Source of the DNA: a virus
Taxonomy: Duplodnaviria > Caudoviricetes
Reading direction: 5' to 3' (one strand)
Length of the DNA stretch: 61,916 nucleotides
IMG/VR virus record: IMGVR_UViG_3300043639_000021
Location: 1 to 61,916 of that record
Shown: one piece after another, positions 5,727-35,877 of the stretch
Position numbering within the stretch: the first letter of the stretch is position 1
How the letters are laid out: each line of letters opens with the position of its first letter
Position numbers and translations under genes: made by a program
The notes under the pieces: model-generated
What the model was told of the DNA's origin: nothing
Databases searched by the model: none
The model's input: the letters and a program-made list of their open reading frames with translations, nothing else

Positions 5727-6305
5727 TTAGCTGAAGGACGACCGGCGGGTGGGATCCTTTGAGCCAAACATCTCACGGGCGTGCCGCCGCCGCTGCTCGT
5801 TGCTGAACTGAAACCCCGGCCCTGCGGGGTTCTCGAAAGGCAAATTCGTGGCCTTTGCTGGTGGACTCCCGGCCTTATAAGGCAACTTCTCCACTCGGGA
5901 CTCGTCCATACCTCTCCTGAAGGGCAGATTCTCGTAAGAATCCACCGTTCGTGCCTTGGCCTTGCGCTCCAATTCAATGAGCGTAGTATTGGTTTCGACT
6001 TCCTTCGTGCGGGCCTTGGCCTTGCGTTCCAACTCAATGAGCGTGGGATTCGTCTCCGTCACCCCGTAGTCGAACCGGCTCAGAAACCCCTTGACCATAC
6101 CTTTGAGCTTCTGGCCAAACGCGCCCGTCGTGGGGGCTCCCATGGTGCCACCCGGACGCCCTCCACCGCTGGGAGCAAATCGGCCATCGGACCCGTGGTT
6201 GGGGTTGTACTTCAGCACCCGTTCATAAGGAAGGGTAGCAACAGGCTTCTCGTCCGGGTGTTCCAGCGCGTGGCGTGACATCACGGCTGAGGTATGAATG
6301 GGCAT
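5727..6305 (-). CDS. Tagged basic protein with internal duplication
   Basis: Likely ATG at 6305 after GGAG. Tag YERVLKYNPNHGSDGRF; two copies of ETNxTLIELERKAKART. Confidence 0.6.
   Translation of the reverse strand: MPIHTSAVMSRHALEHPDEKPVATLPYERVLKYNPNHGSDGRFAPSGGGRPGGTMGAPTTGAFGQKLKGMVKGFLSRFDYGVTETNPTLIELERKAKARTKEVETNTTLIELERKAKARTVDSYENLPFRRGMDESRVEKLPYKAGSPPAKATNLPFENPAGPGFQFSNEQRRRHAREMFGSKDPTRRSSFS
5945..6060. repeat. Imperfect 60-bp tandem duplication within a CDS
   Basis: gccttggccttgcg[c/t]tccaa[t/c]tcaatgagcgt occurs twice, 60 bp apart. Confidence 0.8.
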
Positions 6306-6368
6306 GAGGCTCCTGCACTTGATTGCAACCGGTGTGCGTAGTGTACAGGAGGGGGGAGGATGCAACAA

Positions 6369-6530
6369 CTATTTTCTGGGCACCCACAGGGTGGGGACCA
6401 GTAGCTCCTTGGCCCGCTCCGGATGCACGTTCATCGTGGTCACCAGATGCCGGTAGGCTCGTGGTTTCGCCACTGGTTTCGCCATCAACGGTGCAAGGGA
6501 CCGAGTGATCGGCTTGGTCGTAATCGTCAT
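6369..6530 (-). CDS. Small basic hypothetical protein (53 aa)
   Basis: Manual translation MTITTKPITRSLAPLMAKPVAKPRAYRHLV...; start overlaps the upstream stop (ATGA). Below the ORF track cutoff. Confidence 0.45.
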   Translation of the reverse strand: MTITTKPITRSLAPLMAKPVAKPRAYRHLVTTMNVHPERAKELLVPTLWVPRK

Positions 6531-9310
6531 ACCAGATACCCCTTGGCCTGTGCCACCAGTAGATCATCCGTCAAGTCCAGCCCCCACGTGCCCACCGCAT
6601 CCCCGAAGAGCCATTCCCCGATGGTCACCCCCTCGTAGGTGAAAGGAAGCTCCACAAGGGCCGACAGGGCGTCCACCGACCGGTCTTGGAGCAGATGTTC
6701 CACCAACAGACGGTCCCCCGGCTGAAGGGACGCCAGCATCGGCTCGGCAATGGTCAGCGCATGGGTGCGGAGGCTGTCCCACTCCAATTCATCGGGGAGA
6801 AATCCCAGACGGGCGTAGTAGGCCGCATTGCCTGCGACTCCTACGGCGACTTCCGTCGCGGTGGACTTGAGCCCCATGTCAATCAGGGCGCTGAACATCT
6901 GCTTCATGAACGCCAGTTCCCCTTTGGGGTTCCCGGCCTCCAGATCCGCACGGGTCAGGTAGTAGGTGCCGGTGAAGGGGTCCAACAGGGCTCCCAGCTT
7001 GAACTCGATGCCCTGCGGGCTCGATCCTCGGACGTTGAACCCGATGTTGCCAGATTCCTCAAAGCGGATCGGATTAGCCCCAACGCCTTGGCCCTTGGTC
7101 ATCACCTCCTGTGGGGGAAGCCCGGAGAACTTCGACAGCAACTCCACGGGCGTCATGCCGACGTGCTCGTTCCACTGGTCCACCTGTTCGGGGGTGGCGT
7201 CGATGCCCAGTTCCTTCAGATCATCAGCCGTCACCGCATGGAAGGCTTCGGCCTCAGCGGGAACGGTAGGCGTCACCTCCGTGCTCTCCCCAGCGGAGAA
7301 TTGAATCGCTCGGAGGATGGTGCGGCAGTGTGGATGGTACGGGGGGATGTGGAGCCCACGCTCCGTCAATTCCTCGGCACTCATCTGGGCAAACTCTGCC
7401 AGCGCGGCCTTCGTCTGCTTGGGCCATGGCTGCACCACCCGTAGGTCGTTCGGATCCTGTACTTCCAAGACCTCGATGACCTTCCGGCGGGCATCTGGGA
7501 CGTTGAACACCTTGCCGTTGATCAGGCGACAGAATCGACTCGTGCGCCCGTCAAGGATGGCGGTGAGGCGATACCGGGCCATGCCCAGCACTTCGGCCTC
7601 GGCAGTGAACCCCCACGTCGCCAGTCGGCTGCTGTTCAGGCTGGCGATCATCCGGAGGGATTCATCCCCCTGCTTGTCGAAAGACACGAACGGAGTGACA
7701 TATCGCCCGGATACCGGATCTTTCTTCTGCACCGCCGTCCCGAGATGCACAATCTCCTGCCGGTGGTCCTTGTGGCTAATGATGATAGCCGACACCACGA
7801 AAGAACCATCCACGTACAGGTCCGCATACGGTTCGGCCTTCTCCGGTTTACAGTACGCCAAGGTACAGTGGGGTTTGTAAACCGGGAACGACTTCTCCTT
7901 GAAGTCTGCGTGCTTGCCGATCTCTTTCTCGATCTGGCGTAGCTCGGGACTGGCAATCAGGGCCACGACGGGCACGGCTCCGTCACTGTGCTCACTGGCT
8001 GGGAATAGCTCCACCCGGAGGACACGGGCTTCGAAGGGTGCAAGGGTGGAGAGGTAGGCCCGCAGGCCATCGAGATCGTCGTTCTCCAAGCCGTAGCGGA
8101 CGGTCACATGATTAGGGTCTACGTCCTTGCCATCAGCCATGCAGTCCGCATCGGCTATGGTGGCACGGGCAGCATTCAGGGAGGCGGCGGCGGAACTGGC
8201 TGGGTCAATCTGAATCTGGGTGTTGCCGTACGAGTGCTCGGACTTCTGCGCGTGCTTCTCCTTGAACTTCCGGATGGCTGGTCCGTAGTCCGGAGTATCC
8301 AGCAACGCATCGTGCTCACCGGCTAGAATCTCCGCCTGTAATTGGGCATTCGACGCTTTGGCGATATACCGATACTTCTCATGCCACGGACGGGAGGTAG
8401 TGACGAACCGGCTCGGAGGGATCTCCTGCACATTGGACATGTAATCATGATCGCCACGGTTGAACTCCGCAATCCGTGCAAGAGCGTCTGGGCTGGTCTT
8501 GTCCTCCCGGCTGAACAACGGCCCTCGCCCGGAGATTTCATCTGGATCGAGAAAGACCTCGACATAATCCTTGAAATCGTGCGGCTTCGCCGTGGAGAAC
8601 CAGATAGCGTTCGGCTCTCCGTACCCGGCCCCCTTGGCTTTGGTGATAGACAACCCCTCCTTCTCGACGGCATCCATGTCCCCGGTGTAGTGGTAGCCGC
8701 GAATCTTGCCCGGTGGAATGGGGGTGGTACCGGGTTCAGCGGGTACATCAGAGAACTGACCGTGCGTGTCACGGGGATGCTGGCTCTCATCCCACGCCAG
8801 TTTCACCGCTGCGAGATAGCCGTGCTTCTTGGCATTCTTGACGGATTCTGGATCCATCGACACGGGGATCGACGTGAGCCCCTGATCCCGCAACCACGCA
8901 TACCGGTGTCGCCCGTTGGTGAACCCAACCTTGCCGTCCTCATTCACCGTGACTTCAGACGCCTCCATGGAGTCGTTCTCAGCAATGAATTCTCCGAAGG
9001 CAGGGTAGCGGTCATGGATGGCATTGGGACCACCCCCTACACCAAGATAGAACCCGGTTTCCCGCTGGAAGGCGGTATCAAACGCGACGACATTGAGGGG
9101 GACGAGCTTATCCCCGGCGCGAACGGCTCTCAGTGGCTTGACCACCTCAATTCGCCGCTCACCGACCGTGATGAAAGCTTTCTCAAGGAATCGGCCTTTG
9201 GCATCCCGTCGATGCTCCGACTCCTCCCACGCCAGCTTATGCTCGACACGTATCCGCGTGACTCGCTTGATCCAATCCGAATTCTCGGGGCGCTCGTCAA
9301 GATTGATCAC
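6527..9310 (-). CDS. Polyprotein: ParB-like + ART-like + 2H phosphoesterase (Acb1-like) + MuF C-terminal domain + C-terminal extension
   Basis: Tags KLAWEESEHRRDAKGRF and KLAWDESQHPRDTHGQF. FTNGRHRYAWL (ParB-like); GYHYT...AIWFST (ART-like); HVTV...HCTL (2H); LDGRTSRFCRLING...PPYHPHCRT (MuF/SPP1 gp7); YYARLGF (possibly GNAT-like). Confidence 0.8.
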   Translation of the reverse strand: MINLDERPENSDWIKRVTRIRVEHKLAWEESEHRRDAKGRFLEKAFITVGERRIEVVKPLRAVRAGDKLVPLNVVAFDTAFQRETGFYLGVGGGPNAIHDRYPAFGEFIAENDSMEASEVTVNEDGKVGFTNGRHRYAWLRDQGLTSIPVSMDPESVKNAKKHGYLAAVKLAWDESQHPRDTHGQFSDVPAEPGTTPIPPGKIRGYHYTGDMDAVEKEGLSITKAKGAGYGEPNAIWFSTAKPHDFKDYVEVFLDPDEISGRGPLFSREDKTSPDALARIAEFNRGDHDYMSNVQEIPPSRFVTTSRPWHEKYRYIAKASNAQLQAEILAGEHDALLDTPDYGPAIRKFKEKHAQKSEHSYGNTQIQIDPASSAAASLNAARATIADADCMADGKDVDPNHVTVRYGLENDDLDGLRAYLSTLAPFEARVLRVELFPASEHSDGAVPVVALIASPELRQIEKEIGKHADFKEKSFPVYKPHCTLAYCKPEKAEPYADLYVDGSFVVSAIIISHKDHRQEIVHLGTAVQKKDPVSGRYVTPFVSFDKQGDESLRMIASLNSSRLATWGFTAEAEVLGMARYRLTAILDGRTSRFCRLINGKVFNVPDARRKVIEVLEVQDPNDLRVVQPWPKQTKAALAEFAQMSAEELTERGLHIPPYHPHCRTILRAIQFSAGESTEVTPTVPAEAEAFHAVTADDLKELGIDATPEQVDQWNEHVGMTPVELLSKFSGLPPQEVMTKGQGVGANPIRFEESGNIGFNVRGSSPQGIEFKLGALLDPFTGTYYLTRADLEAGNPKGELAFMKQMFSALIDMGLKSTATEVAVGVAGNAAYYARLGFLPDELEWDSLRTHALTIAEPMLASLQPGDRLLVEHLLQDRSVDALSALVELPFTYEGVTIGEWLFGDAVGTWGLDLTDDLLVAQAKGYLV

Positions 9311-10278
9311 GCCAGTAGCTCCTGAATCTTCCGCTTCGCGGTATGCTCACGGCTGGCGTCAAACACCCACGCCTGCCGGGGCTTCCCCAGCATGATTAGT
9401 TCCCGCTCGTGCAGCGCCCCTCGCCCGGTCAGTGCCGTACTCAGGATCTCCGACACCGGCACACGGGTAGTAATCACAGACGGCTCGGGGGTGTCATATG
9501 TATCTTCGCCGGGGATCTGGTCAAACGACTGATTGGACGTGAATTGAAACGCCACGTCCTCATCCGATGTCCACGACGACGCAGGCTGCATCGTCACCGT
9601 GCCCACCCCTAAGCCTAGCTCCCCACGGCCCTGTAGCCCGCCGTGTCCACGCAGCACGGACACGTGCGTAATCCCTTGCTTCGCGAACCACGCTTGCGTA
9701 TTTTCATACTCGGCTCGGACAAACGCCATTGCTCGTGATCGCTCGGGCTCTTTAAGCGTGGGATGGAATCTCAGGTGATCCGTAGCGGCATCCAACCCAA
9801 ATTCCAATCGAACCGCCTCCTGCATCTTGACGGCATCCACACTGTTCGCCGCCGTATCCGCCCACAGATCAATCTTCTCTTGAATCCACCCGGCTATCTT
9901 CGGCCCCGTCATACCAGCAAAGGCCGGGTGTTTCAACAGGCGCTCCGTCAACTCCATTTGAACCCGACGTTTCACGACGCCCCGTACCTCAGATGCCCGC
10001 AACGGATCGAACCCCGGAAAGCTGTCTCGTATGGCTCCCTCCACCTGTTTAGGAGCCACCAGCCGCGTGTGATCCTGAAACGCCCGCTGCATTTGATCGA
10101 CTTCAGCCTGCCGGGGATGGTAGGACGACACCCAGCGCCCCCCACCAGAAGTGCCCTCAGGATTCCGTGGCTGATTGGGATCGAACTTCTGTACTGGCCC
10201 GTAGAGGGGGACCAGAAATTCCCGGTCGTCAATGAGCAGTTCAGGAGTCATGGGGTTCAAAGGTATAGGTGAAGCCAC
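9307..10278 (-). CDS. Tagged ADP-ribosyltransferase (R-S-E type)
   Basis: Tag KFDPNQPRNPEGTSGGGRW; VLRG...SSWTS...ERELIML catalytic pattern. Confidence 0.72.
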   Translation of the reverse strand: MASPIPLNPMTPELLIDDREFLVPLYGPVQKFDPNQPRNPEGTSGGGRWVSSYHPRQAEVDQMQRAFQDHTRLVAPKQVEGAIRDSFPGFDPLRASEVRGVVKRRVQMELTERLLKHPAFAGMTGPKIAGWIQEKIDLWADTAANSVDAVKMQEAVRLEFGLDAATDHLRFHPTLKEPERSRAMAFVRAEYENTQAWFAKQGITHVSVLRGHGGLQGRGELGLGVGTVTMQPASSWTSDEDVAFQFTSNQSFDQIPGEDTYDTPEPSVITTRVPVSEILSTALTGRGALHERELIMLGKPRQAWVFDASREHTAKRKIQELLA

Positions 10279-10864
10279 CGAGTTGCCTCTGCAACCGGGA
10301 GTACAGCAACTTGTGGTGCATCGCGTTCGCTTCGGCTATCGAAATGTCAGAGTGAACAATTCGCTGCTCCAAGTCGGCTTTCACCGCTTCGTGCATCGCC
10401 CGCACGGCTTGATAGAAATTCGGGGGCCACGTCGCACCCGTGCGTCGAATGCTGTGCGTACCGGTAGCAATCACCGCCCGCACTTCCAACACATTCCGTT
10501 TCGCGGCGGTAAACGCATCCTGCTGACTCGGACCCATCCCTGAGGGATGATTGTGCGTCAACACCGCCCCCGTAAGATCGGCATCCGTGGCGTTCCCCAA
10601 CTGCACCGCATGAGGATCGTCATTCCCCAGCACCTTGAAGGGCTTGCCATCCCGAATCAGGAAGACATGCTCATTCATCTCGTGACGAATGCGATGCTCC
10701 GCTGCCGCCAGCGTAGGTGGCAGGGGCTCCGCCCGCATCTCCGCTGCCGTCGTCTGTCCTCCCACCCCAGCCCAGCGCCCATCGTCATCACGGGGCTGGT
10801 TCGGGTTGAACTTCAGCACCGGAATTGCACTTGATTGCACGGGGCGTAGCTGGAGGTAGAGCAT
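10241..10864 (-). CDS. Tagged JAB/MPN metallopeptidase-like protein
   Basis: Tag LKFNPNQPRDDDGRW; E...LTHNHPSGMGPSQQD JAMM-like motif. Confidence 0.72.
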   Translation of the reverse strand: MLYLQLRPVQSSAIPVLKFNPNQPRDDDGRWAGVGGQTTAAEMRAEPLPPTLAAAEHRIRHEMNEHVFLIRDGKPFKVLGNDDPHAVQLGNATDADLTGAVLTHNHPSGMGPSQQDAFTAAKRNVLEVRAVIATGTHSIRRTGATWPPNFYQAVRAMHEAVKADLEQRIVHSDISIAEANAMHHKLLYSRLQRQLGGFTYTFEPHDS

Positions 10865-10866
10865 GG

Positions 10867-11097
10867 TCAGTCGGAGATGAACTTCGCCCGGTAGTAGGAA
10901 CCGGAGAACTCGATTTCCAACGACTTCAAGAACTCCGCGTCATCGGTCTTGCGCCCGCGTTGCATCTCGATATCTCGTAGAATCGGCGGCGGTACCGGTT
11001 CGTTGGTCTGAATCTGCACCCCCCCGTTCTCGGCCCGGATGGTACACATCACCCGTGCCCCCTGATTCCCCGTCATGGCCCACAATTCCACGTGCAT
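10867..11097 (-). CDS. Small untagged protein, candidate immunity partner of the upstream kinase
   Basis: GGAGGT RBS before ATG 11097; own consensus promoter; directly downstream of the kinase gene; no tag. Function inferred from context only. Confidence 0.55.
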   Translation of the reverse strand: MHVELWAMTGNQGARVMCTIRAENGGVQIQTNEPVPPPILRDIEMQRGRKTDDAEFLKSLEIEFSGSYYRAKFISD

Positions 11098-11114
11098 CAC
11101 ACACCTCCAGTCAC

Positions 11115-11143
11115 AGTGTATCACTAGGATGACAGTTTGTCAA
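11115..11143 (-). promoter_or_regulatory. Sigma70-type promoter inside the head operon
   Basis: TTGACA-17 bp-TACACT on the minus strand, just after the kinase stop codon. Confidence 0.75.
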
Positions 11144-12871
11144 TCACCATGACATGAGTTGCTGATCGTTCCACAGATCGACCAGTCCTTCGGGGGTTTG
11201 CAGGGCGGTTTTGATGTTGTCCACCCGCCCCAAGAAAGCGGCACGTTCCTTGGCGTTCATGTTCGGGTGGCGATCCACCAGTGCCTGCCAATCGGTCTTC
11301 GATACCGCCCCCTGAAGCGTCTGACGTAAATCTTCGGAGATTTCCGAGTTGTTGCTTTTCCACTCTCCGACCACGCCGGATCGAAACTGAAACGAATCCG
11401 GCTCCCGAGACGCGGGCATGCTGTAGCCGTTGTCGATGGCCACGAGCTTCCCATTCTCGTAGAGGATGTTCTGGCTGTGTCGATCCATCGTGCCGATCAC
11501 GTAGTCCAGCACCGCCAGCTTGGCCTTCTCGTCATCGCTCGTAGTTCCCCAGCTTTCCGCGTTTCCACGGAACTGCTGAATGGATCCCCCCTCGGGGTGT
11601 GGGGCGTCTGCATTCCCCTCTCCACCCCTTCCGCCGCTCCCAAATCCTTGGCTCCGCCGCCAATCCGTGAAGGACGGGAACTGCTCGTCCATCAACCGGT
11701 TCTCGGTGTCGGAGTGGTCCTGTATCCACTCATCGCGATCCAGATGCTCAAACGCCTCTGTGCGGGTGGGATCTTCCAGTTCTCGGTAGCCTTCCTCCAG
11801 CCGCTTCCGGAGCAGTTCTCGGACGCGATCTTCCTCATACGTCCGCAACGACCGGCCTGCGTCGATACCCGCCCCGTCGATGACCTCTAGCAAGGGGAGC
11901 GGCCCGACGTCTCGGCGCTCAAACCCCTCAGCCGATCCCAGCGGCAAGGCCGCATGTTCACGCAGCGCAGACGGAGAACCATGGGTGTGGTCACTGGGAT
12001 AGGCTTTCTTCTCGTCCTCCCAGATTTCACGAATTTCCTCGGCCCGGTTCTCAATGTCATCGGCGTGTTCCTTCTGCGCTTCTTCGAACTTCTCGTTCAT
12101 CGCCTCCGCGACGTTCTCGTAGGCTTGATCCTGCCCGCGTTCCTTGTAGCTCTCGTAGCGGCTCCGTAATTCATCGGAGTCGTAGCCCCCGCCGCCTTCA
12201 CCACCCACTTCACTGAGATCCACATCATCCACTCGTTCTCGGAGCACCGTGGCAGGCACCAACCCGAGATTCAGTGCAGAATCGACCTCGTAGGCGAAGG
12301 CTTCCCGTTCTGCGAGAGAAAAGTCTTTGTTCTTGAGGAACCGATTGATGTCCCCATTGGTAAAGCTCATATCCCATGCTTCACCCACCTCGGGTTTGTA
12401 AAAGCCCTTGGTGCCATCTTCGAACGTCACTTTAAAGGCGGCATTTGAACCGCCTCCATAGTTATCACTGTCCGTGATCTCCCCGTTCGCCAGCGTCTCC
12501 AGCACCTCCGCTTGCGCGGCAGACGCCTTGGCATGCGCCTCTGCGGCCTCTGTGGCCTTCGCCTGCGCCACGAGAGCTTGTACTCCGGTGGTTCCTCGGG
12601 GATTGTTTTCAAACCCTGTCCCACTGGGGCCATTCATGATGTCCGCATACCCGGCGTTCCCCTGTTGACGGGACATACCCTTGGGAGTCGAGAAGTCTCC
12701 CGGCATGCTCCCCGTCCCGGCGCTCACTCCCTTGACCCACCGTCCACCAGTCGGTGTGCCTTTCTGGCCACGAGGCTGATTGCGATCCCACTTCAGTACA
12801 TCCGGAAACGTGGGCTCCATCTTGAGGATGCGCCGAATCTCTGCAATCAAGTGCCGGGTGACGGTGATCAT
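11144..12871 (-). CDS. Tagged PI3/4-kinase-like (HipA-related) kinase with large acidic insertion
   Basis: Tag LKWDRNQPRGQKGTPTGGRW; GFYKP, EREAFAYEVDSALNLGLVPATV, GSIQQF, LDYVIGTMDRHSQN and IDNG kinase motifs. Confidence 0.8.
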   Translation of the reverse strand: MITVTRHLIAEIRRILKMEPTFPDVLKWDRNQPRGQKGTPTGGRWVKGVSAGTGSMPGDFSTPKGMSRQQGNAGYADIMNGPSGTGFENNPRGTTGVQALVAQAKATEAAEAHAKASAAQAEVLETLANGEITDSDNYGGGSNAAFKVTFEDGTKGFYKPEVGEAWDMSFTNGDINRFLKNKDFSLAEREAFAYEVDSALNLGLVPATVLRERVDDVDLSEVGGEGGGGYDSDELRSRYESYKERGQDQAYENVAEAMNEKFEEAQKEHADDIENRAEEIREIWEDEKKAYPSDHTHGSPSALREHAALPLGSAEGFERRDVGPLPLLEVIDGAGIDAGRSLRTYEEDRVRELLRKRLEEGYRELEDPTRTEAFEHLDRDEWIQDHSDTENRLMDEQFPSFTDWRRSQGFGSGGRGGEGNADAPHPEGGSIQQFRGNAESWGTTSDDEKAKLAVLDYVIGTMDRHSQNILYENGKLVAIDNGYSMPASREPDSFQFRSGVVGEWKSNNSEISEDLRQTLQGAVSKTDWQALVDRHPNMNAKERAAFLGRVDNIKTALQTPEGLVDLWNDQQLMSW

Positions 12872-12873
12872 CC

Positions 12874-15039
12874 TTAGCTCACTTTCGACCAGTCTACGGT
12901 GCTCATCCAGTGGGGCTTGCCACGGTCCTCGGCTTGGAGATCGATCACCAGCGTCTGGGACTCGGCCTTCTTCACCGGTTGTACGATGGGCACCTCATCG
13001 AAGGATGGGGCTCGGTTGCGCCACGCATCCCACAACCACTTGTCTTTGGTACCCACAATGACCACCTCGTGCTCGGAAGTATTATTCGCCCCGTAGATCG
13101 GCAGTGAAAGCACCGACGTAGGAGGCGTCTCGATGCGAAGGACGACTCGGATGGGATCCGGAGGCAGATTGCCGACACCACCCCACTCGTTCGCCACATC
13201 ACGAGTGCCGGTCGTAGACGCGGCTCCAGACCGTTGCAGTTGAATATCAGGCAGTTTGATAGACAAACCCACAGAAGTATTCAAATACATCGCGATTCGC
13301 CGCTGAATCGCCACCTCATTACTCTCGTAGGGAGTCTGACCGACGTCCGTGATAGTGGTGGCCTCGACGCGCTTCTTCGGAACCACAAAATGCTGGCCGT
13401 TGAAATCAAAGGCCACATGAGGGAACGGAGAATACGTACTCGTCACCTCTTTAATATTCGTGGCTGCGGGTTCGGGTTGTCCCGTTTTATCCACGATCAA
13501 ATTCGTCGTGCCCCTCACCACGTCACCGGGCATCTGCAACCCCCGATACACGGGAACTGTCGTCTCCCCGGCCCGCTGTAACACCAGTTGGTTCACTTCC
13601 CACTGGGCACGGACGTAGGCTTGCAACGTGGCGATACCGCCATAATCCTCGGCATCCGCCGTCGCGTCCTCTACCTCTTCCTTCGTCAGCCGATGGTGAC
13701 CTCCCAGTTCCAGTGCCGCCGCCAACTGCAACGACAGAGACAACCCTTCACTAGACGAAGCAATCCACTGTCCCCAAACATCGCTAATCAATTTCTGCGA
13801 CGTGGTCGGAAGAGATGCTTGTTTTTGCCAGTACGTCGCCCACTTTTCTCCGAATTCCTTAGCCAGTTCTTCTGTCTCCGCCCCGCCTACCACACTCCCC
13901 GTATCATCCTTCACCACGAACTTGCCAGCTTTAACCAGCAACGGATGATTCGCTTCAACCGTATACGCAGGTCGTTCGACAGCATGTTCCCCCGCAAACC
14001 CCCGCTCTTTCCGCAACTCATCCGTCCGTAGTTCGGTCAGACGCTTGGCAATCGTCGCTGTGCGGGCGTAGTCATCATCCTCGTGGGTGCCTTCTTTGAT
14101 GCCTGATACCCAGTGTGTCGGCTCATGACGGCCTGCGGTCCCATAGGGATTGTCCACCCCGGAGAATTCTCCGCCTGCGATCATCTCGGGAATGACGGCG
14201 GCTCGTTGCTCGGGGGACATCCGATCCCACTGCTTCTGAACTTCCGCCGTGACCAACTCCCCCCGCTCCTCCAAATACTTGTCGGTGTTCTGAACCCGCT
14301 CGATTTCATCGTCCAGCACCCGCTTGTATTCGTGGGACCACCACCCACTCACATGGGTTTTTTCGAGGGGTGTCAACTCCGTGCCATCCGTGTGTCGCAG
14401 TGCATTGGTATCCAACACCGGCACCCCGGTATCGTCCACGCGCTTCGGGTCAGGCACGCTTAACGTCTTGAAGTCCAGTGGTTTGCCCTGCGACACGCTC
14501 TTATCGAGCGCATACCCGTCCATGGGCTTGTCACCGATTCGACCTTCTACCCAGACCTTGGTCTTCTCGGCCAGTTCGGGAGCGTGGTTCTCGATCAAAT
14601 CCCACCGGACATCCACCACCATGTCAGCGTCGATGGCCTGCACGTCCACGTTGTCGTACTGAGACTCTGCGTAGTAGGCGGCAACCTTTTGCTTGGTGCT
14701 CTCAGGAAGATCCCCCCACTCCCCTTTCACCTCCGACATATCCATCGTGTCGATGGCTTCCGGTAGGAGCCTCTCGACGGCAGCGATCCCGGCCTTGGCT
14801 TGCACCGCTAACAGAGGATCGGACGTAGGGACGCCTGAACGACCGGACTCCGTGAACCGCCCGCCCTCTCGCGTGCCTTCGGGGTTGCGGGGGTGCTCAG
14901 ACTCGTCAAAGGCGTCCTTGGCCTGCTTCGGTGGGGGATGACGTTTCTCCAGCAACACCCGGATCTTGTGGACAAGCTCCTGCCCACGGATTAAGGCGTC
15001 CTCTCGGAGTATTGTTTTCTCGATGGTGTCGTGGCTCAT
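12874..15039 (-). CDS. Tagged large protein with C-terminal R-S-E ADP-ribosyltransferase domain
   Basis: Tag KDAFDESEHPRNPEGTREGGRF; VYRG...STT...EHEVVIVG. Similar to 9307..10278 (YVRAQWEVNQ vs FVRAEYENTQ). Confidence 0.68.
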   Translation of the reverse strand: MSHDTIEKTILREDALIRGQELVHKIRVLLEKRHPPPKQAKDAFDESEHPRNPEGTREGGRFTESGRSGVPTSDPLLAVQAKAGIAAVERLLPEAIDTMDMSEVKGEWGDLPESTKQKVAAYYAESQYDNVDVQAIDADMVVDVRWDLIENHAPELAEKTKVWVEGRIGDKPMDGYALDKSVSQGKPLDFKTLSVPDPKRVDDTGVPVLDTNALRHTDGTELTPLEKTHVSGWWSHEYKRVLDDEIERVQNTDKYLEERGELVTAEVQKQWDRMSPEQRAAVIPEMIAGGEFSGVDNPYGTAGRHEPTHWVSGIKEGTHEDDDYARTATIAKRLTELRTDELRKERGFAGEHAVERPAYTVEANHPLLVKAGKFVVKDDTGSVVGGAETEELAKEFGEKWATYWQKQASLPTTSQKLISDVWGQWIASSSEGLSLSLQLAAALELGGHHRLTKEEVEDATADAEDYGGIATLQAYVRAQWEVNQLVLQRAGETTVPVYRGLQMPGDVVRGTTNLIVDKTGQPEPAATNIKEVTSTYSPFPHVAFDFNGQHFVVPKKRVEATTITDVGQTPYESNEVAIQRRIAMYLNTSVGLSIKLPDIQLQRSGAASTTGTRDVANEWGGVGNLPPDPIRVVLRIETPPTSVLSLPIYGANNTSEHEVVIVGTKDKWLWDAWRNRAPSFDEVPIVQPVKKAESQTLVIDLQAEDRGKPHWMSTVDWSKVS

Positions 15040-29952: not shown

Positions 29953-30720
29953 TCAACCCCGCTTCGCCTTGTCCTTCCACAGACTCCGGGCGGAGGCAAT
30001 CGGGCTGTAGGACTTCGACGCGTTGGACGCGCCTTCCGGCAGTGGGAGGCTCCGCTGCTTCACCACCTTCTGGCTCACGAAGCCTGCGCTGTTCCCCTGC
30101 CACTCCGCGTCACTGCGGCCCCGCACCGTGACCACCACCGGCTTCTTCGCCGGTTCGACCGCAGACACACCGTAGTGCTTCCGCAGGAACGCCACCTGTG
30201 CGTCACTCTCCACGGCCTTTTTGCAGTAGTGCTTCCGCACCCACTGGATGGCGTCCTTGTCACCCAGTTCCGCCACGATGGCCGAGAGCACCGTCCCTGT
30301 GCGCCCATGCCCGCCGATGCAACCGACGTGGACCGTCTTGCCTGCCTGCAATTGAGTGCAGAGCCACGTGATCAGCTTCTTGAATCGTGGGACGTTCTGG
30401 GGGATCCCCATGTCCTGAATCATGTAGCCGATTTCCACGACCTTCTGCTTCTCCCATGGGTCCGATTGCAGGCCATTCATGTCCCCGGACTGGAGCACCA
30501 CGTAGACGTCTGCGTTCTTGACCGGGAAGCGGCCACTCCCCCCGTAGAGTGTGCCGCCTCCCACCTTCAGCGCCGGATGCGACTCGTAGCACCGGAGTGC
30601 GAACTCCGTCCCCGCGAACGCGTCCTGACCCTTCTTCTTCCATCCGTCCACAAAACTTGACACGTTCACTGCTCCAATCGCTGATATACGGTAACCGTCT
30701 GACCCGGATAGACGGCCCAC
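29953..30720 (-). CDS. Cys-based (dual-specificity/PTP-like) phosphatase
   Basis: IQDMGIP acid loop, HVGCIGGHGRTG (CX5R), AVESDAQ; start probably near 30663. Confidence 0.85.
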   Translation of the reverse strand: MGRLSGSDGYRISAIGAVNVSSFVDGWKKKGQDAFAGTEFALRCYESHPALKVGGGTLYGGSGRFPVKNADVYVVLQSGDMNGLQSDPWEKQKVVEIGYMIQDMGIPQNVPRFKKLITWLCTQLQAGKTVHVGCIGGHGRTGTVLSAIVAELGDKDAIQWVRKHYCKKAVESDAQVAFLRKHYGVSAVEPAKKPVVVTVRGRSDAEWQGNSAGFVSQKVVKQRSLPLPEGASNASKSYSPIASARSLWKDKAKRG

Positions 30721-32926: not shown

Positions 32927-34879
32927 TCACACCCCCAAAAGCTGAAACGCCTGCGCGTGTGACACTGCCGACTTCGCCGCTGGCACATACGCGCCGAGCG
33001 ACACCACCGTGAGCCCTTCAGCTTGCTTCCATGCGAGTACCCGCTGGATGGCCGGATCCGTCACGTCAGAGGCATCAAGGGCCACTTCATCCGCAAGGAT
33101 CAACGACCGGAGATCCGTTCCGGTCGTCAACCGCTGCAAGCTCGTCACGTAGAGATCCGGTACCACCACCACCAGCTTGCCGTAATGCTCGTGGCTGGAC
33201 AACGCAGCTTCCAGCAGCGCCAGCACCCGTGCCGTGTGGTCGTGTGTGGCGAAGATCTTCAGGAACTTCGCGTCCCCCTCACCGGGCACCAGATCCAGAT
33301 ACAGCCGGTCCACCTTGTGGAGCGCCAGCAGTACCGTCTGTGCCGCCTTCAGCGGGTTGAGGATTTGATCCCCCAAGTAGAGCACCGCTTCCGGCAGCTT
33401 GTGGCTGGGTGCATCGAACAGCACCGGCACCACACCCAGAGCCTTGCAGACCATCGCTTGAAACGCGTGAATGGTCCCGTTCGACTCCGCCTTCGTGACC
33501 GGAATCTCCTCCGCCCAGATGCGCCCCGTGGCCCCGTCCATGCTCAGGATGGCCGCACCCTTGAAGGACTCCAGCGAAGCGCCCACACCCACGATGCAGG
33601 GCCGATTCATCGGTCGTGCCACCACCGCTGCATGGCACGTCATGCCCCCGTGCATCGTGATGATGCCCACCGCCGCCTTCATCCCCGTGATGTCCTCGGG
33701 CGTGGTTTCCTCGGTCACGAGGATGCAGGGTTCCTTGCACTCGATTGCAGCCTCTTTCGAGAACACCGGCTTGCCACTCACCACTCCGGAGCAGGCCGCG
33801 ATCCCCGTGAACAAGGCGGGCTTGACCCACGAGGGATCCAGCGACACCGTCTGCGCCAGATCCAACAGCTTGGCCGGAACCCGCTTGACCGCTTCCTTCG
33901 CGTCAATCACTCCCTGCGCCACGAAATCTGTCGCGATCTTGACCGCCGCAATCGGCGTCCGCTTGCCCGTGCGAACCTGAAGCAGATACAGACTACCGTC
34001 CTGAATCGTGAACTCGATATCGAGCATCTCCCGCTTCAGGTTCTCCAGCGAGATGACTTGCGCCACCAACTGTTGGTGGACCGCCGGGTTCCATGCCTGC
34101 ATCGTATCGAGCGACTGTGGCGTCCGAATCCCGGCGACGATATCCTCCCCCTGTGCCTTCGGCAACCACTCGCCGGTCACAAAAGAAGCGCCCGTGTTGG
34201 GATTCCGCGTGAACAACACGCCGGACCCACTCTGCTCGTTCAGGTTCCCGAAGACCATCGCCTGCACCGTGACTGCGGTACCCCATGCCCGGTCGTACCC
34301 GTGCTCCAGCCGATAGAAGTCAGCCCGGTCATTATCCCATGACTGGAACACCGCTTCGATGGCTCCCAGCAACTGGGCCGCTGCCTCGGGGAACGGCTCA
34401 CCCGTTTTCTCCTGATACACGTCCAATGCCTCGGCCAGCGTGCCTTCCAGCGATTCCTTGCGGATGCCATGCACGACGCTCCCGTACATCACCACCAGCC
34501 GCTTGAAGGAGTCCGCGAAGCAGGCCGGTCCCAGCCGATTGGTCCACTCACCCACGTTCGACGGCTCGATGCCGACGTTGAGGATCGTGTCCATCATGCC
34601 GGGGCACGAGACACGAGCACCCGAGCGCACCGACAGCAGCGGCAGATACCCGAAGTGGGCCTCCAGCTTCTCCAGATACGCAGGCAGCGCCTTCGCGATG
34701 GCCTTCAGCGTGGTCTTGGGCTTCTTGTCGTACTCCGCCCAGACCGACGTGGGGATCACGAAGCCGGGTGGCACCGGGACACCTTCATTGGCCAGCCACA
34801 GCAGGCCCGCGCCCTTGCCACCCAGTTCCTCGACCGTGCCGGTGGAGGCTTCCTTGAGTCCGAATGTGATGAATTCCAT
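32927..34879 (-). CDS. PPDK-like dikinase (ATP-grasp + phospho-His domain) lacking the PEP-binding barrel
   Basis: LGGKGAGL, PVPPGF, LLSVRSGARVSCPGMMDTILNVG, VQAMVFGN, AQGEDIVAGIRTP, DIEFTI, GGMTCHAAVVAR. Only ~190 aa of unrelated sequence follow the His domain. Confidence 0.88.
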   Translation of the reverse strand: MEFITFGLKEASTGTVEELGGKGAGLLWLANEGVPVPPGFVIPTSVWAEYDKKPKTTLKAIAKALPAYLEKLEAHFGYLPLLSVRSGARVSCPGMMDTILNVGIEPSNVGEWTNRLGPACFADSFKRLVVMYGSVVHGIRKESLEGTLAEALDVYQEKTGEPFPEAAAQLLGAIEAVFQSWDNDRADFYRLEHGYDRAWGTAVTVQAMVFGNLNEQSGSGVLFTRNPNTGASFVTGEWLPKAQGEDIVAGIRTPQSLDTMQAWNPAVHQQLVAQVISLENLKREMLDIEFTIQDGSLYLLQVRTGKRTPIAAVKIATDFVAQGVIDAKEAVKRVPAKLLDLAQTVSLDPSWVKPALFTGIAACSGVVSGKPVFSKEAAIECKEPCILVTEETTPEDITGMKAAVGIITMHGGMTCHAAVVARPMNRPCIVGVGASLESFKGAAILSMDGATGRIWAEEIPVTKAESNGTIHAFQAMVCKALGVVPVLFDAPSHKLPEAVLYLGDQILNPLKAAQTVLLALHKVDRLYLDLVPGEGDAKFLKIFATHDHTARVLALLEAALSSHEHYGKLVVVVPDLYVTSLQRLTTGTDLRSLILADEVALDASDVTDPAIQRVLAWKQAEGLTVVSLGAYVPAAKSAVSHAQAFQLLGV

Positions 34880-34917
34880 ATGTGCTTCCCACTCCATTGG
34901 TCAGACTTGACTTCATC

Positions 34918-35021
34918 AGTGTAACGAATACGCTGGCGTTTGTCAAGTGGTGCTGACTGGTTCGTTTGCACCGGAGTCAGCACTCACCAAATACGGTAAC
35001 ACGTCCGTAGCTATTTGTCAA
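34918..35021 (-). promoter_or_regulatory. Two tandem sigma70-type promoters
   Basis: TTGACA-17-TACACT (34918-34946) and TTGACA-17-TACCGT (34993-35021). Confidence 0.7.
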
Positions 35022-35877
35022 CCGGCTTCTTGTACTCCCCCTTCAGGATGGCCGCGTAATCCAGTGCGCTGGCTTCAGCCGCTTCCTGTAGCTTCGGGGA
35101 CACCTCGGGCAGCGGCTTGGGATCCGCCTTGATCAGCATCTTCAACGCCATTACTGTACCCCCTTGAGAACCTGCTTCGCCTGCTCGATCTCCTCGGGCG
35201 TGGGATCGCGGCCCGTCAACGACTTGGACAGGGCGATCAGATCCGCCAGCGTGGGCGGGCCTTCGCGTGGCCCCGTGAGATGGAGAATCGGCTTTTGCGG
35301 CATGTCGTGTTCCTATCTTAATCGACTGGCCTTTTACCAGATCGAAATATGCGATTTGGTCGGCGGCTCTGGCCAGACGGTCAGCTTCCTCGGCTGTCTC
35401 CACCACCGTGGACACGTCAAGATACACCTTACCATCGTCTGGATTGTGCCAACCCCCGATGAAGTTGCCTGACTCCTTCAGCAGACCCCAGTTCTTCGCC
35501 GCGTACCGGGCCAACGCTACCACCGTGGCCTGCGAATCGTCCATGACCGCTTCACGATCCCGATGGATCGAGAGGGCGAAGCCCGTGGTGGGCTGTTCCC
35601 CCGTCACCGCATGATACGTGAACCCACCATCGGGCCTACCAATGGCGTCGAGAATTCCCTCGACCTTCGGCAGCGTGGGGAGCCCAGTGCCCGTCCACTG
35701 CCCCTGATCGTCACGAGGCTGGGCAGGGTTGTACTTTACCACGGAAGCGCGTGAGCGTGCAATCAAGTGCAACGGGGGCGTCAGGAGCTTCAGATCGTCA
35801 TCCGTTCGATGTGAGTGCCCCGTCTGGTGCGGTGCTTCCCGATGGGACTGTGCGACTTCTCGGGTAAGATCAGCCAC
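35011..35877 (-). CDS. Tagged protein with conserved phage domain of unknown function
   Basis: Tag VKYNPAQPRDDQGQW; GGFT...PTTGFALS...IGGWHNPDDGKVYLDVS...DQIAYFDL; likely GTG start at 35877. Confidence 0.65.
   Translation of the reverse strand: MADLTREVAQSHREAPHQTGHSHRTDDDLKLLTPPLHLIARSRASVVKYNPAQPRDDQGQWTGTGLPTLPKVEGILDAIGRPDGGFTYHAVTGEQPTTGFALSIHRDREAVMDDSQATVVALARYAAKNWGLLKESGNFIGGWHNPDDGKVYLDVSTVVETAEEADRLARAADQIAYFDLVKGQSIKIGTRHAAKADSPSHGATRRPAHAGGSDRPVQVVDGPRSHARGDRAGEAGSQGGTVMALKMLIKADPKPLPEVSPKLQEAAEASALDYAAILKGEYKKPVDK
35151..35303 (-). CDS. Nested 50-aa ORF in an alternative frame
   Basis: MPQKPILHLTGPREGPPTLADLIALSKSLTGRDPTPEEIEQAKQVLKGVQ; overlaps a low-complexity stretch of the host ORF. 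Confidence 0.5.
   Translation of the reverse strand: MPQKPILHLTGPREGPPTLADLIALSKSLTGRDPTPEEIEQAKQVLKGVQ

What the first reader, a model, noticed from the sequence alone, without database searches (positions are those of the whole stretch)
6193..35771. Palindrome sits just 5' of six tag-coding sequences
Seen: copies at 10826, 35758, 18437, 17004, 12842 and 6314 lie roughly 10, 20, 25, 30, 45 and 100 bp upstream of a tag. All five copies I found inside the cargo array are placed this way. Inference: either the palindrome marks cassette boundaries (a recombination or capture site for effector shuffling), or it silences each toxic cassette individually, or these linkers simply tolerate the site.
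Basis: partly seen in the sequence, partly recalled or inferred. Interest (0 to 1): 0.75.

Follow-up and report, generated by a model that had tools for sequence, protein, structure and literature searches.

The report
Genome-wide phage palindrome lattice, not cargo-specific
The palindrome next to the six tags is real, but it is one of about 18 evenly spaced copies of a protein-docking site that this phage family keeps throughout its genome, written in-frame into the flexible stretch ahead of a tag where no non-coding DNA is free.

Summary
Observation confirmed. All six palindrome copies lie 15-104 nt 5' (gene strand = minus) of a tag, far more often than chance. In relatives, 25 of 34 array copies are placed the same way against 10.8% expected.

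The palindrome is not a cargo feature. The window holds 18 copies of TGCA(A/C)T-YR-A(T/G)TGCA against 0.11 expected, and 12 lie outside the cargo genes. Complete relatives hold 18-37 copies. Stenotrophomonas phage DLP5 has no tags and no cargo array, yet holds 35.

Copies are spaced far too evenly for chance (CV 0.39-0.49 against about 0.95). They sit in core promoters and 5'UTRs, and in-frame inside genes using rare codons. Two points indicate a dimeric dsDNA-binding protein: independently varying half-sites and a central YR step. Its identity and role were not shown; I judge a regulator or transcription roadblock most likely.

In the almost gap-free 17-kb cargo array, the leader or linker ahead of a tag is where a copy fits, always in the one cysteine-free frame.

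The recombination-site idea is weak. Breakpoints cluster at tags as well as at the palindrome. No tyrosine or serine recombinase was found in 0 of 5 genomes.

The parts
6314..6327 (.). Palindrome copy TGCAATCAAGTGCA (gene strand) in a 5'UTR. A TACACT -10-like box lies 12 nt upstream. GGAG and the ATG at 6305 follow directly. The tag YNPNHGSDGRF is 104 nt downstream.
10826..10839 (.). Palindrome copy at codons 9-13 of ORF 10241-10864 (reads VQSSA), 15 nt before tag FNPNQPRDDDGRW.
12842..12855 (.). Palindrome copy GGCACTTGATTGCA at codons 6-10 of the kinase-like cargo ORF 11144-12871 (reads RHLIA), 51 nt before its tag. The orthologous copy is kept in relatives (for example L122:9088, L123:15391, L148:18909).
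17004..17017 (.). Palindrome copy between a conserved N-terminal mini-domain and the first tag of ORF 15036-17177 (reads AHSSA). It is the exact right-hand edge of a 534-nt cassette present in relative L122.
18437..18450 (.). Palindrome copy at codon 124 of ORF 17153-18820 (reads LHLIA), between a conserved about 125-aa N-domain and the first tag. The orthologous copy is kept in all relatives and in DLP5 (position 2250), with the centre flipping between CA and TG.
35758..35771 (.). Palindrome copy in the N-terminal leader of ORF 35011-35970 (reads LHLIA), 25 nt before tag YNPAQPRDDQGQW.
2565..19471 (-). Cargo array: ten large or overlapping ORFs between the portal and the XkdF-type protease. 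It holds 13 tags of the form K[FWY][DN]x3-4PRx2-12G[RQK][FW], with aromatic codons at 19447, 18406, 18034, 16970, 14910, 12790, 10810, 10185, 9229, 8794, 6209, 5444 and 3422. Two further tagged ORFs lie at 35011-36754 (tags at 35733 and 36730).
   Evidence: in DLP5 the same interval holds a single 446-aa MuF/ParB-nuclease protein
21387..21415 (-). Conserved portal promoter. Its -35 TTGCAA is formed by the palindrome at 21401-21414 plus one T. An 8-nt variable stretch follows (17-nt spacer in all), then the -10 box TAGACT.
   Evidence: same layout in 19 of 22 distinct portal-upstream regions
1743..1756 (.). Palindrome copy inside scaffold-like ORF 848-1975 (codon 74).
25050..25063 (.). Palindrome copy in an intergenic stretch. 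It overlaps a TATATT box and is directly followed by AAGGAGG and an ATG.
30347..30360 (.). Palindrome copy inside the DSP-phosphatase-like ORF 29953-30720. It is orthologous to DLP5 position 90558.
33736..33749 (.). Palindrome copy inside the PPDK-like ORF 32927-34897 (codon 383, just before the mobile PEP-utilizers domain). It is orthologous to DLP5 position 86707.
38614..38627 (.). Palindrome copy (1 mismatch) inside the 1298-aa tail-fibre-like ORF.
45527..45540 (.). Palindrome copy in an intergenic stretch. TATACT lies 10 nt downstream and a small ORF starts at 45486.
48149..48162 (.). Palindrome copy 5 nt downstream of a tool-predicted promoter (GTGACA-18-TAGAAT, 48197-48168) and directly 5' of AAGGAGG.
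51061..51074 (.). Palindrome copy in an intergenic stretch, 14 nt before the GTG start at 51046.
54985..54998 (.). Palindrome copy in the last codons of ORF 54973-55398, directly 5' of GAGGAG and the ATG of an 86-aa HTH-like ORF (54712-54972).
58850..58863 (.). Palindrome copy (1 mismatch) inside ORF 57971-60874.
60810..60823 (.). Palindrome copy (1 mismatch) upstream of the likely true start of the 967-aa ORF. The layout TTGCAC-18-TAGGAT was read by eye.

Best explanation
The palindrome is one site of a genome-wide lattice. The lattice is a 14-bp two-fold symmetric sequence, TGCA(A/C)T-YR-A(T/G)TGCA. This phage clade spans soil and sediment phages of 116-120 kb and Stenotrophomonas phage DLP5. 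It keeps a copy about every 3 kb, in promoters and 5'UTRs where they exist and otherwise in-frame inside genes.

The sites are most likely docking sites for a dimeric, phage-encoded dsDNA-binding protein. I judge the most likely role to be transcriptional control: an operator at core promoters, and a roadblock ('stoperator-like') inside operons.

The cargo array is 17 kb of long, abutting or overlapping ORFs with almost no non-coding DNA. There the lattice copies sit in the short leader or inter-domain linker just N-terminal to a tag, which is the 5' edge of a cargo gene or cassette. They are always in the one reading frame that avoids cysteine (xTG-CAx-TyA/TTG-AkT-GCA = [LV][QH][SL][IS]A). 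That is why every array copy lies 15-104 nt before a tag.

Shown:
- genome-wide distribution and even spacing;
- selection at the DNA level;
- placement in promoters;
- conservation across the clade.

Inferred:
- that a protein binds the sites;
- that the protein is a regulator or roadblock;
- that cargo genes are thereby gated.
For: (1) Not cargo-specific.
- The window has 18 sites against 0.11 expected, and 12 lie outside cargo ORFs.
- Four complete relatives have 37, 18, 34 and 19 sites, with 0 for the reversed-pattern control.
- DLP5 has 35 sites but no tags and no cargo array.

(2) Even spacing.
- CV of the gaps is 0.39-0.49 against about 0.95 for random placement. None of 20,000 simulations reached it in any of 4 genomes. 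There are no gaps under 676 nt or over 7.2 kb.

(3) DNA-level selection.
- In DLP5, 16 of 20 Q[SL]IA peptides use exactly the rare motif codons. Codon usage predicts 0.00015-0.00084 per peptide.
- At the orthologous site of 18437, the peptide switches between LQSIA, LQLIA and LHLIA while the palindrome is kept.

(4) A dsDNA dimer site rather than an RNA hairpin.
- Half-sites vary independently: 12 of 17 window sites are A/C hybrids (my count on the list).
- The centre is a YR step: CA 33, TG 18, CG 1, TA 1 over the 53 sites of the window and DLP5.
- RNA hairpins would be weak, -1.9 to -4.7 kcal/mol.

(5) Promoter context.
- The portal promoter keeps tTGCAAT...-8 nt-TAnACT in 19 of 22 distinct upstream regions, while the 8 nt between vary.
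- By eye, 8 of 18 window sites lie in promoters or 5'UTRs. Several sit between a -10-like box and the Shine-Dalgarno sequence (48149, 6314, 25050).
- In DLP5, 9 of 35 sites are intergenic against 5.4% intergenic DNA, typically 10-15 nt before the start codon.

(6) Frame.
- All 5 cargo copies that lie inside ORFs use the same offset.
- In DLP5, 16 of 26 coding copies use that frame. The other two frames both encode Cys.

(7) Used by other mobile elements.
- A 6.5-kb satellite-like island in a Comamonas genome carries 9 copies. It has an integrase, a Rep_trans replication initiator, an XRE regulator, and a protein whose N-terminus is 58% identical to this phage's scaffold-like protein.

(8) Candidate binder (a lead only).
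- An orthologous MerR-type HTH protein is present in DLP5 and in 4 of 4 complete relatives.
Against: - No binding protein is identified and no expression data exist. No RNA run was listed.
- The tool's consensus promoter scan places only 1 of its 21 promoter-like hits next to a palindrome (48197-48168). The phage's 9 strongest promoters (perfect TTGACA-17/18-TAnnnT on the gene strand) carry none. Most of my promoter assignments at palindromes therefore rest on eye and on conservation.
- Most copies are deep inside genes (26 of 35 in DLP5 are in CDS). None of the five array copies inside ORFs has a -10-like box at the portal-promoter distance (my reading).
- An even lattice fits a non-transcriptional role equally well.
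- The choice of which 5 of 13 tag linkers carry a copy gives a spacing no more even than 124 of 1287 alternative choices (not significant).
- Alignment breakpoints do cluster at the palindrome. A role in mosaic exchange is therefore not excluded.
Confidence: 0.55

Rival explanations
1. Architectural or self-marking lattice without a primary role in transcription. The sites load or anchor a protein that partitions, compacts, protects or marks the phage chromosome. This would resemble ParB/KorB/Noc-type loading sites, or a two-directional Chi-like protective signal. Cargo-array copies exist only to keep the spacing.
For: - Spacing is strikingly even, with no gap above 7.2 kb, in 4 of 4 genomes.
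- 26 of 35 DLP5 sites are inside CDS, several deep within (tape measure codon 868, tail protein codons 208 and 519).
- Deep intragenic sites are kept at orthologous places from DLP5 to the window (PPDK-like and DSP-like genes).
- A satellite-like island carries the site at about four times the density, also inside ORFs.
- DLP5 is reported to persist as a phagemid (abstract of PMC5834331, seen in the listing). It encodes a ParB_N protein.
- KorB of RK2 is a sliding clamp loaded at dispersed palindromic operators (abstract of PMC11790492).
Against: - ParB_N (PF02195) was found in 0 of 4 complete relatives and not in the window (the search has a loose first filter).
- Many sites are positioned precisely in core promoters or directly 5' of Shine-Dalgarno sequences.
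- In the first 124 stretches of a capped scan of bacterial genomes, the 80 rows shown were single hits except in two genomes. Counts in those two genomes showed clustering in islands. I saw no sign of a host-wide signal such as Chi.
Confidence: 0.22
2. Cassette boundary or recombination hotspot. The palindrome is where cargo cassettes are cut and joined, by a site-specific enzyme or by microhomology.
For: - Of 925 BLASTN alignment ends in 12 arrays, 166 lie within 40 nt of a palindrome against 34.4 expected.
- Enrichment is 4.1-fold at palindrome-plus-tag, 4.6-fold at palindrome alone and 2.5-fold at tag alone.
- Against the closest relative L122, identity jumps from 74.8% to 91.9% exactly at 17017/17016. 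A 534-nt extra cassette (tag variant plus a domain of about 170 aa) is inserted at the palindrome's left edge.
Against: - Alignment ends are not independent events and were not controlled against gene starts in general.
- Their peak lies 20-30 nt past the palindrome, at the tag.
- The clearest swap (one cassette in the window against two in L122) is bounded by tags at 18406 and 18042, with the palindrome staying attached to the conserved N-domain.
- 12 of 18 copies lie outside arrays, and DLP5 has 35 copies and no cassettes.
- Tyrosine recombinase PF00589 and resolvase PF00239 were each found in 0 of 5 genomes, and none among the 60 window ORFs.
- None of the 15 joints shown (6 more not shown) in contigs of 4 other runs lies within 40 nt of a palindrome (contigs only, so weak).
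Confidence: 0.1
3. RNA-level element. Transcribed copies form a small hairpin just 5' of ribosome-binding sites and act in translation control or RNA processing.
For: - In DLP5 and the window, many intergenic copies sit 0-3 nt before AGGAG.
- A palindrome gives the same stem in either orientation.
- Intergenic copies lean to the CA centre on the gene strand: 11 CA to 4 TG, plus 1 TA (my count; not significant).
Against: - Stems are 4-5 bp, at -1.9 to -4.7 kcal/mol.
- 12 of 17 window sites pair an A-type with a C-type half-site, which breaks the fifth base pair, so there is no covariation.
- The portal-promoter copy lies upstream of the predicted transcription start.
Confidence: 0.07
4. Chance, or a peptide motif. 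The 14-mer merely encodes a conserved leader peptide of cargo proteins, or linkers tolerate it without any function.
For: All array copies inside ORFs share one frame and encode [LV][QH][SL][IS]A.
Against: - The same 14-mer occurs in non-coding DNA and in the two other frames in other genes.
- It is encoded with rare codons in 16 of 20 cases.
- Both orientations occur, giving different peptides.
- The window has 18 sites against 0.11 expected.
Confidence: 0.03

Closest known systems
Stoperators of Cluster A mycobacteriophages (immunity repressor sites dispersed over the genome)
   Same: There are many copies of one short site spread across the whole phage genome. According to the abstract of PMC9283540 (listing), the repressor there both down-regulates early lytic promoters and terminates elongation at numerous sites. 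That is the same logic I propose for copies in promoters and inside operons, including ahead of cargo genes.
   Different: Stoperators are asymmetric and bound by a monomer (title and abstract of PMC9283540). Here the site is two-fold symmetric and occurs with both centre orientations (CA 33, TG 18). Most copies are inside genes, in-frame, and evenly spaced. The binder is unknown, and the lysogenic lifestyle is documented only for DLP5 and DLP3, not for the window's phage.
KorB and its OB operators on IncP plasmid RK2
   Same: These are dispersed palindromic sites of similar length on a mobile replicon of about 60 kb. They act both at and far from promoters through a clamp that slides from its loading site (abstract of PMC11790492). 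The number of OB sites and their sequence are recalled, not read.
   Different: No ParB_N-family protein was found in 0 of 4 complete relatives. The sequence is unrelated, and here the sites number 18-37 per genome.
Integron attC sites / cassette arrays
   Same: An array of exchangeable cassettes in which a short imperfect palindrome recurs near cassette edges.
   Different: No integrase is present (0 of 5 genomes). The site is 14 bp, not the longer folded attC (recalled). It lies at the 5' side, inside ORFs, and mostly outside the array. Cassettes here are protein domains fused in-frame and bounded by the peptide tag.
Polyvalent (multi-effector) virion proteins of phages, MuF-associated (Iyer et al. 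2017, PMC5512222)
   Same: The cargo ORFs are strings of unrelated enzyme domains encoded next to portal and MuF. Pfam finds a kinase-like domain, a 2H phosphoesterase, a ParB-like nuclease and an oxidoreductase; the ART-like domains are my reading by eye. The paper raises recombinational cassette variability (passage found).
   Different: A term search of that paper found no 'HPR', 'linker' or 'short motif'. So neither the tag nor the palindrome is described there, as far as those passages show.

Membership tests
Integron-type cassette recombination site (attC) | A site-specific tyrosine recombinase encoded with the array | tested here: not met
   PF00589 was found in 0 of 5 genomes (the window plus 4 complete relatives), while all 14 control genomes matched. 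None was found among the 60 window ORFs.
Integron-type cassette recombination site (attC) | The site is confined to cassette junctions | tested here: not met
   12 of 18 window copies lie outside cargo ORFs. DLP5 has 35 copies and no cassettes.
Serine-recombinase shufflon or invertible system | A resolvase or invertase gene, with sites in inverted pairs around the shuffled segments | tested here: not met
   PF00239 was found in 0 of 5 genomes. None of the 15 joints shown (6 more not shown) lies at a palindrome in contigs of 4 runs (weak).
Stoperator-like dispersed repressor sites | Tens of copies of one site spread over the whole phage genome | tested here: met
   18 copies in the 62-kb window, 18-37 in complete relatives and 35 in DLP5.
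Stoperator-like dispersed repressor sites | An asymmetric site with one orientation relative to transcription | tested here: not met
   The site is dyad-symmetric. The centre is CA 33, TG 18 on the gene strand.
Stoperator-like dispersed repressor sites | Bound by the immunity repressor; blocks elongation | not testable with these tools
   No binding or expression data are available. No RNA run was listed.
ParB/KorB-type loading sites (parS, OB) | A ParB N-terminal (CTPase) domain protein encoded by the replicon | tested here: not met
   PF02195 was found in 0 of 5 genomes, 4 of them complete. DLP5 does encode one.
ParB/KorB-type loading sites (parS, OB) | A palindromic site of 13-16 bp, present in several dispersed copies | tested here: met
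Sigma-54 promoter | GG and GC elements separated by exactly 10 nt (TGGCAC-N5-TTGC; consensus recalled) | tested here: not met
   In GGCACTTGATTGCA the spacing is GG-N9-GC, and most copies start with TG, not GG (one search list).
Sigma-70 promoter -35 element | A TTGACA-like hexamer 16-18 nt upstream of a TAnnnT box | tested here: inconclusive
   Met at the portal promoter in 19 of 22 relatives. By eye it is met at 60810 (18-nt spacer); 45527 has a 19-nt spacer, outside the range. It is not met at the array copies inside ORFs. The tool scan flags only 48197-48168 next to a copy.

The most novel reading that the evidence does not exclude
The lattice is a shared 'grammar' of a phage lineage. One phage-made dimeric protein reads a 14-bp palindrome written every 1-7 kb through the whole chromosome. 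It thereby gates or marks every stretch of it, including each toxic cargo cassette individually. Satellites and genomic islands copy the same word to plug into, or hide behind, that protein. New cargo cassettes can persist only if the array keeps its lattice copies, which would tie effector shuffling to the lattice.
Probability: 0.3. Interest if true: 0.8.

Novelty: new variant of a known kind. Interest (0 to 1): 0.55.

Why it matters
If the lattice is a docking array for one phage protein, that single factor controls or marks an entire 100-kb virus. Known examples are few and differ from this one: stoperators are asymmetric and bound by a monomer, and KorB is a ParB-type clamp.

For this finding in particular, it changes how the cargo array should be read. 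The palindromes are not cassette-shuffling sites. They are lattice copies forced into protein-coding DNA, and they have shaped the leader peptides of virion cargo proteins.

Phage DLP5 carries the same sites, so the binder and its role can be tested directly in a cultured system. The same word occurs in a satellite-like island of Comamonas. This hints that parasites of these phages use the same signal.

Tried and rejected
- **Exact-word scan of viral contigs.** It returned 120 stretches, capped, almost all single hits. It showed only that several contigs later found as relatives share the word.
- **Sequencing runs.** No RNA holder was listed, so there is no evidence on expression. I laid contigs of 4 DNA runs on 2500-21500. 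No places where molecules begin or end were reported. The 15 joints shown (6 more not shown) are at 3223/5583, 5717/6682, 13228/13524, 13756/16141, 18631/19493, 18819/19631 and others, none within 40 nt of a palindrome. Contigs are short and of low depth, so this is weak.
- **Sigma-54 promoter.** Spacing is one base short, so rejected.
- **Fibrobacter-type LexA box (TGCNC-N4-GTGCA).** This was recalled from memory only and not checked. I set it aside because DLP5 infects Stenotrophomonas and uses the TGCAAT half-site.
- **IHF-like core.** It fits only partly, so rejected.
- **86-aa HTH-like ORF at 54712-54972, directly behind a copy.** The Sigma70_r4 match is E = 0.0013, below the cut-off. There was no match in DLP5 or in 4 complete relatives (where an empty answer shows nothing). 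It remains a lead only.
- **The DLP5 'transcriptional repressor' gp140.** It has a 32%-identical homologue at 32333-32656 but no DNA-binding family hit.
- **Choice of tag linkers.** I tested whether the choice of linkers is dictated by even spacing. 124 of 1287 alternative choices are at least as even, so the result is not significant.
- **Literature.** The two exact 14-mers occur in 0 papers. The DLP3 paper has 0 occurrences of palindrom-, promoter or operator (term search only). Supplements were not opened.
- **Earlier notes of this scan.** Place and sequence look-ups gave nothing. A word look-up (after a mis-sized) gave eight notes on similar lattices.
Full report
**What the window is.** The 61,916-bp window is the whole record held. 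CheckV rates it 54% complete (table).

It is a phage fragment with nearly all genes on the minus strand. Pfam and PHROGs scans of 60 ORFs give this order:
- a cut major capsid gene (1-795);
- a scaffold-like ORF (848-1975);
- an XkdF-type protease (1981-2568);
- ten large ORFs (2565-19471);
- a portal (19468-21345);
- DNA polymerase A (25074-27434);
- a PPDK-like kinase with two DSP-phosphatase-like genes (29953-34897);
- tail genes.

The ten large ORFs carry unrelated enzyme domains: an oxidoreductase, a 2H phosphoesterase with MuF, and a PI3/4-kinase-like domain. They also carry a recurring peptide, K[FWY][DN]x3-4PRx2-12G[RQK][FW]. A pattern scan of the gene strand finds 15 of them, 13 in 2565-19471 and 2 in 35011-36754.

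On the gene strand they end 104, 15, 51, 33, 30 and 25 nt before the aromatic codon of a tag.

Between the portal and the last tag, 5 of 5 copies lie within 125 nt 5' of a tag, where 9.5% of positions qualify.

The portal has many relatives in IMG/VR: 47 loci, 33 of them with at least 48% identity. I took 11 of those 33 loci, chosen by eye as non-redundant. In them, 25 of 34 array copies are placed the same way against 10.8% expected (binomial 1.4e-17).

These sites are partly inherited together, so that figure overstates independence.

Conversely, most tags have no palindrome. That is 9 of 15 in the window and 46 of 71 in relatives. In the window, 6 of 11 first tags of an ORF have one, and 0 of 4 internal tags do (my count).

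**The palindrome is not a cargo feature.** Allowing one mismatch to TGCAMTYRAKTGCA, the window has 18 sites against 0.11 expected. Twelve lie outside the cargo ORFs, from 1743 to 60810.

All 141 hits in the 47 portal-related loci fall in the 33 loci with at least 48% portal identity. There are none in the 14 loci with about 30%.

Four complete relatives of 116-120 kb carry 37, 18, 34 and 19 sites. The reversed pattern gives 0 in each (a fifth record was not held).

The closest cultured relatives are Stenotrophomonas phages DLP5, DLP3 and Summit, at 47-49% portal identity. DLP5 has 35 sites, nearly all perfect TGCAATCAATTGCA or TGCAATTGATTGCA.

Yet DLP5 has a single 446-aa MuF/ParB-nuclease protein between portal and protease, and no tags. 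The motif therefore exists in the clade independently of the cargo array and its tags.

**The sites are selected as DNA.** In DLP5, 16 of 20 Q[SL]IA peptides in long open frames are spelled with exactly the motif's rare codons (CAA, TCA or TTG, ATT, GCA). Codon usage gives 0.00015-0.00084 per peptide.

The site after the conserved N-domain (window 18437) is kept in all relatives and in DLP5 (position 2250). Its peptide, however, changes between LQSIA, LQLIA and LHLIA. The central dinucleotide flips between CA and TG, a two-base change that preserves the palindrome class.

Sites in the PPDK-like and DSP-like genes are also orthologous between DLP5 and the window.

Inside ORFs, one frame is preferred. 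All 5 cargo copies that lie inside ORFs share it, and so do 16 of 26 coding copies in DLP5. The two other frames both contain a TGC cysteine codon, which gives a simple reason for the preference.

**What kind of site it is.** The two halves vary independently. In the window, 12 of 17 sites pair a TGCAAT half with a TGCACT half (my count). This breaks the fifth base pair of any hairpin. Predicted RNA stems are weak, -1.9 to -4.7 kcal/mol.

The centre is almost always a pyrimidine-purine step: CA 33, TG 18, CG 1, TA 1. Such steps are typical of sites kinked by a bound dimer (established knowledge).

DLP5 uses A at position 5 in 96% of half-sites. The window uses A in 42% and C in 56%. This is what one expects if sites co-evolve with a phage-encoded reader.

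I therefore read the motif as the docking site of a dimeric dsDNA-binding protein.

**Where the sites sit.** The copy upstream of the portal is part of a conserved promoter. In 19 of 22 distinct portal-upstream regions the layout is t-TGCAAT...(14 bp), 8 variable nt, then TAnACT. That is a -35 TTGCAA, a 17-nt spacer and a -10 box.

Other window copies lie between a -10-like box and the Shine-Dalgarno sequence (48149, 6314, 25050), or just before a start (51061, 54985).

In DLP5, 9 of 35 sites are intergenic although only 5.4% of the genome is. These typically lie 10-15 nt before the start codon.

Against this, the tool's consensus scan found 21 promoter-like sites against about 13.8 expected. 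Nine are perfect TTGACA-17/18-TAnnnT on the gene strand. Only one of the 21 (48197-48168) adjoins a palindrome (60001-61916 was not scanned). So the phage has a palindrome-free class of strong promoters. Most of my promoter calls at palindromes rest on eye and conservation.

**Even spacing.** The gaps between sites have a CV of 0.39 (window), 0.49 and 0.45 (two complete relatives) and 0.43 (DLP5). Random placement gives about 0.95, and none of 20,000 simulations reached the observed value in any genome. There is no gap under 676 nt or over 7.2 kb.

This property explains the finding. The array is 17 kb of abutting or overlapping ORFs, so lattice copies must be written into coding DNA. The tolerant places are the short leaders and inter-domain linkers that precede tags.

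Whether the particular linkers used are those that optimise spacing is not shown. 124 of 1287 alternative choices are at least as even.

**Recombination.** BLASTN ends of homology are enriched near palindromes. Of 925 ends, 166 lie within 40 nt of one against 34.4 expected. Enrichment is 4.1-fold at palindrome plus tag, 4.6-fold at palindrome alone and 2.5-fold at tag alone.

These ends are not independent, and I did not control against gene starts in general.

The closest relative is L122, at 89-92% DNA identity. It shows two events:
- Between the tags at 18406 and 18042, the window has one cassette where L122 has two. The palindrome stays with the conserved N-domain.
- At 17017/17016, identity jumps from 74.8% to 91.9%. 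L122 has an extra 534-nt cassette inserted exactly at the palindrome's left edge.

So tags, and once the palindrome, bound exchanged cassettes.

No tyrosine or serine recombinase was found in the window or in 4 complete relatives. Contig joints in 4 other runs avoid the palindromes (weak).

I rate a dedicated recombination role at about 0.1.

**Who reads the sites.** This is unknown. Four leads were examined:
- ParB_N was not found in 0 of 4 complete relatives, although DLP5 has one.
- A MerR-type HTH protein (DLP5 gp060) is present in 4 of 4 complete relatives. It is clearly orthologous in three of them; for the fourth I extracted the wrong frame. The window fragment lacks it.
- An 86-aa HTH-like ORF sits directly behind the copy at 54985, but no relative of it was found.
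- These are leads, not tests.

**The same word elsewhere.** A capped scan of bacterial genomes returned 124 stretches. The 80 rows shown were single hits in unrelated taxa, except in two genomes.

In a Comamonas testosteroni scaffold, 9 copies lie in the last 6.5 kb. That stretch encodes:
- a P4-type integrase;
- a Rep_trans initiator;
- an XRE regulator;
- a protein whose first 48 residues are 58% identical to the N-terminus of the window's scaffold-like ORF.

This looks like a satellite of a related helper phage.

In Paraburkholderia elongata, a 20-kb island present on two contigs has 17 copies, mostly between genes.

Mobile elements that copy the word argue for a trans-acting reader.

**Comparison and novelty.** The nearest known systems are three:
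- Stoperators of Cluster A mycobacteriophages (abstract of PMC9283540). These sites are asymmetric and bound by a monomer.
- KorB/OB of RK2 (abstract of PMC11790492). That is a ParB-family clamp.
- The dispersed C1 operators of phage P1, which I recall but did not check.

The exact 14-mers occur in no paper of the library. The DLP3 paper does not mention palindromes, promoters or operators (term search).

Earlier notes of this scan describe similar evenly spaced palindrome lattices in other phages. One covers a family that includes Stenotrophomonas phages. They are AI notes, and I treated them as leads. My spacing, codon and DLP5 tests were run independently before I saw them.

**Verdict.** Its best explanation is a genome-wide lattice of docking sites, embedded in the leader or linker ahead of tags. 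It is not a cargo-specific recombination signal.

Noticed in passing
window 1743-60823 (18 sites); G001, G003, DLP5: Palindrome copies are spaced far more evenly than chance. CV of the gaps is 0.39-0.49 against about 0.95, and none of 20,000 simulations reached it. No gap is under 676 nt or over 7.2 kb.
   Followed up: yes
L297 (Comamonas testosteroni scaffold end) 7270-13734: A 6.5-kb satellite-like island lies next to the aspartate kinase gene. It encodes a P4-type integrase, a Rep_trans initiator, an XRE regulator, an HTH_23 protein, and a 235-aa protein whose N-terminus is 58% identical to the window's scaffold-like ORF. It carries 9 copies of the same palindrome, several in the QSIA frame.
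   Followed up: partly
L296 (Paraburkholderia elongata, contig C163 46000-65999; repeated on C293): A genomic island has 17 palindrome copies in 20 kb, mostly between genes and some only 60-150 nt apart. It encodes a 1441-aa NOV_C protein, an ADP-ribosylglycohydrolase, a Sel1-repeat protein and a truncated resolvase. A variant with a CG centre clusters on contig C113.
   Followed up: partly
window 10869-11143: Inside the cargo array there is a consensus promoter (TTGACA-17-TACACT, 11143-11115), then GGAGG and a 75-aa ORF (10869-11094) with no family match. It lies between the kinase-like cargo gene and the next tagged gene, and could be an immunity or helper protein.
   Followed up: no
window 2565-19471 versus DLP5 1892-3232: The interval between portal and protease is 17 kb with 13 tags here. 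In DLP5 it is a single 1.3-kb MuF/ParB-nuclease gene. In relative L121 the conserved N-domain plus palindrome is fused directly to the part homologous to window 8263-7769 (the MuF protein). The array therefore looks like an expansion inside an ancestral MuF gene.
   Followed up: partly
L122 1710-6883 versus window 15036-18820: The closest relative differs by whole tag-plus-domain cassettes. It has two cassettes of about 270 aa where the window has one of about 115 aa, and an extra cassette of about 170 aa with a variant tag (KREYVRDEKGQF).
   Followed up: partly
window 29953-34897: A conserved module holds a PPDK-like kinase, two DSP-phosphatase-like proteins and a phrog_20946 protein. It is syntenic with DLP5 genes annotated as pyruvate phosphate dikinase, tyrosine phosphatase and 'thymidylate synthase'. 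Pfam does not support the thymidylate synthase label here. It may be a nucleotide or DNA modification module.
   Followed up: no
window 11143, 29940, 31821, 34946, 47393, 49748, 50546, 56325, 57015: Nine near-consensus promoters with a perfect TTGACA lie on the gene strand, and none has a palindrome. This suggests two promoter classes in this phage.
   Followed up: partly
window 44246-44836 (+): This is the only clear plus-strand gene. It is an HNH endonuclease (phrog_9443, 3e-22) with its own predicted promoter at 44212-44240.
   Followed up: no
window 54712-54972 (-): An 86-aa ORF has an HTH (Sigma70_r4, E = 0.0013, below the cut-off) and a CxxC...CxxC tail. It starts right after a palindrome copy.
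   Followed up: partly
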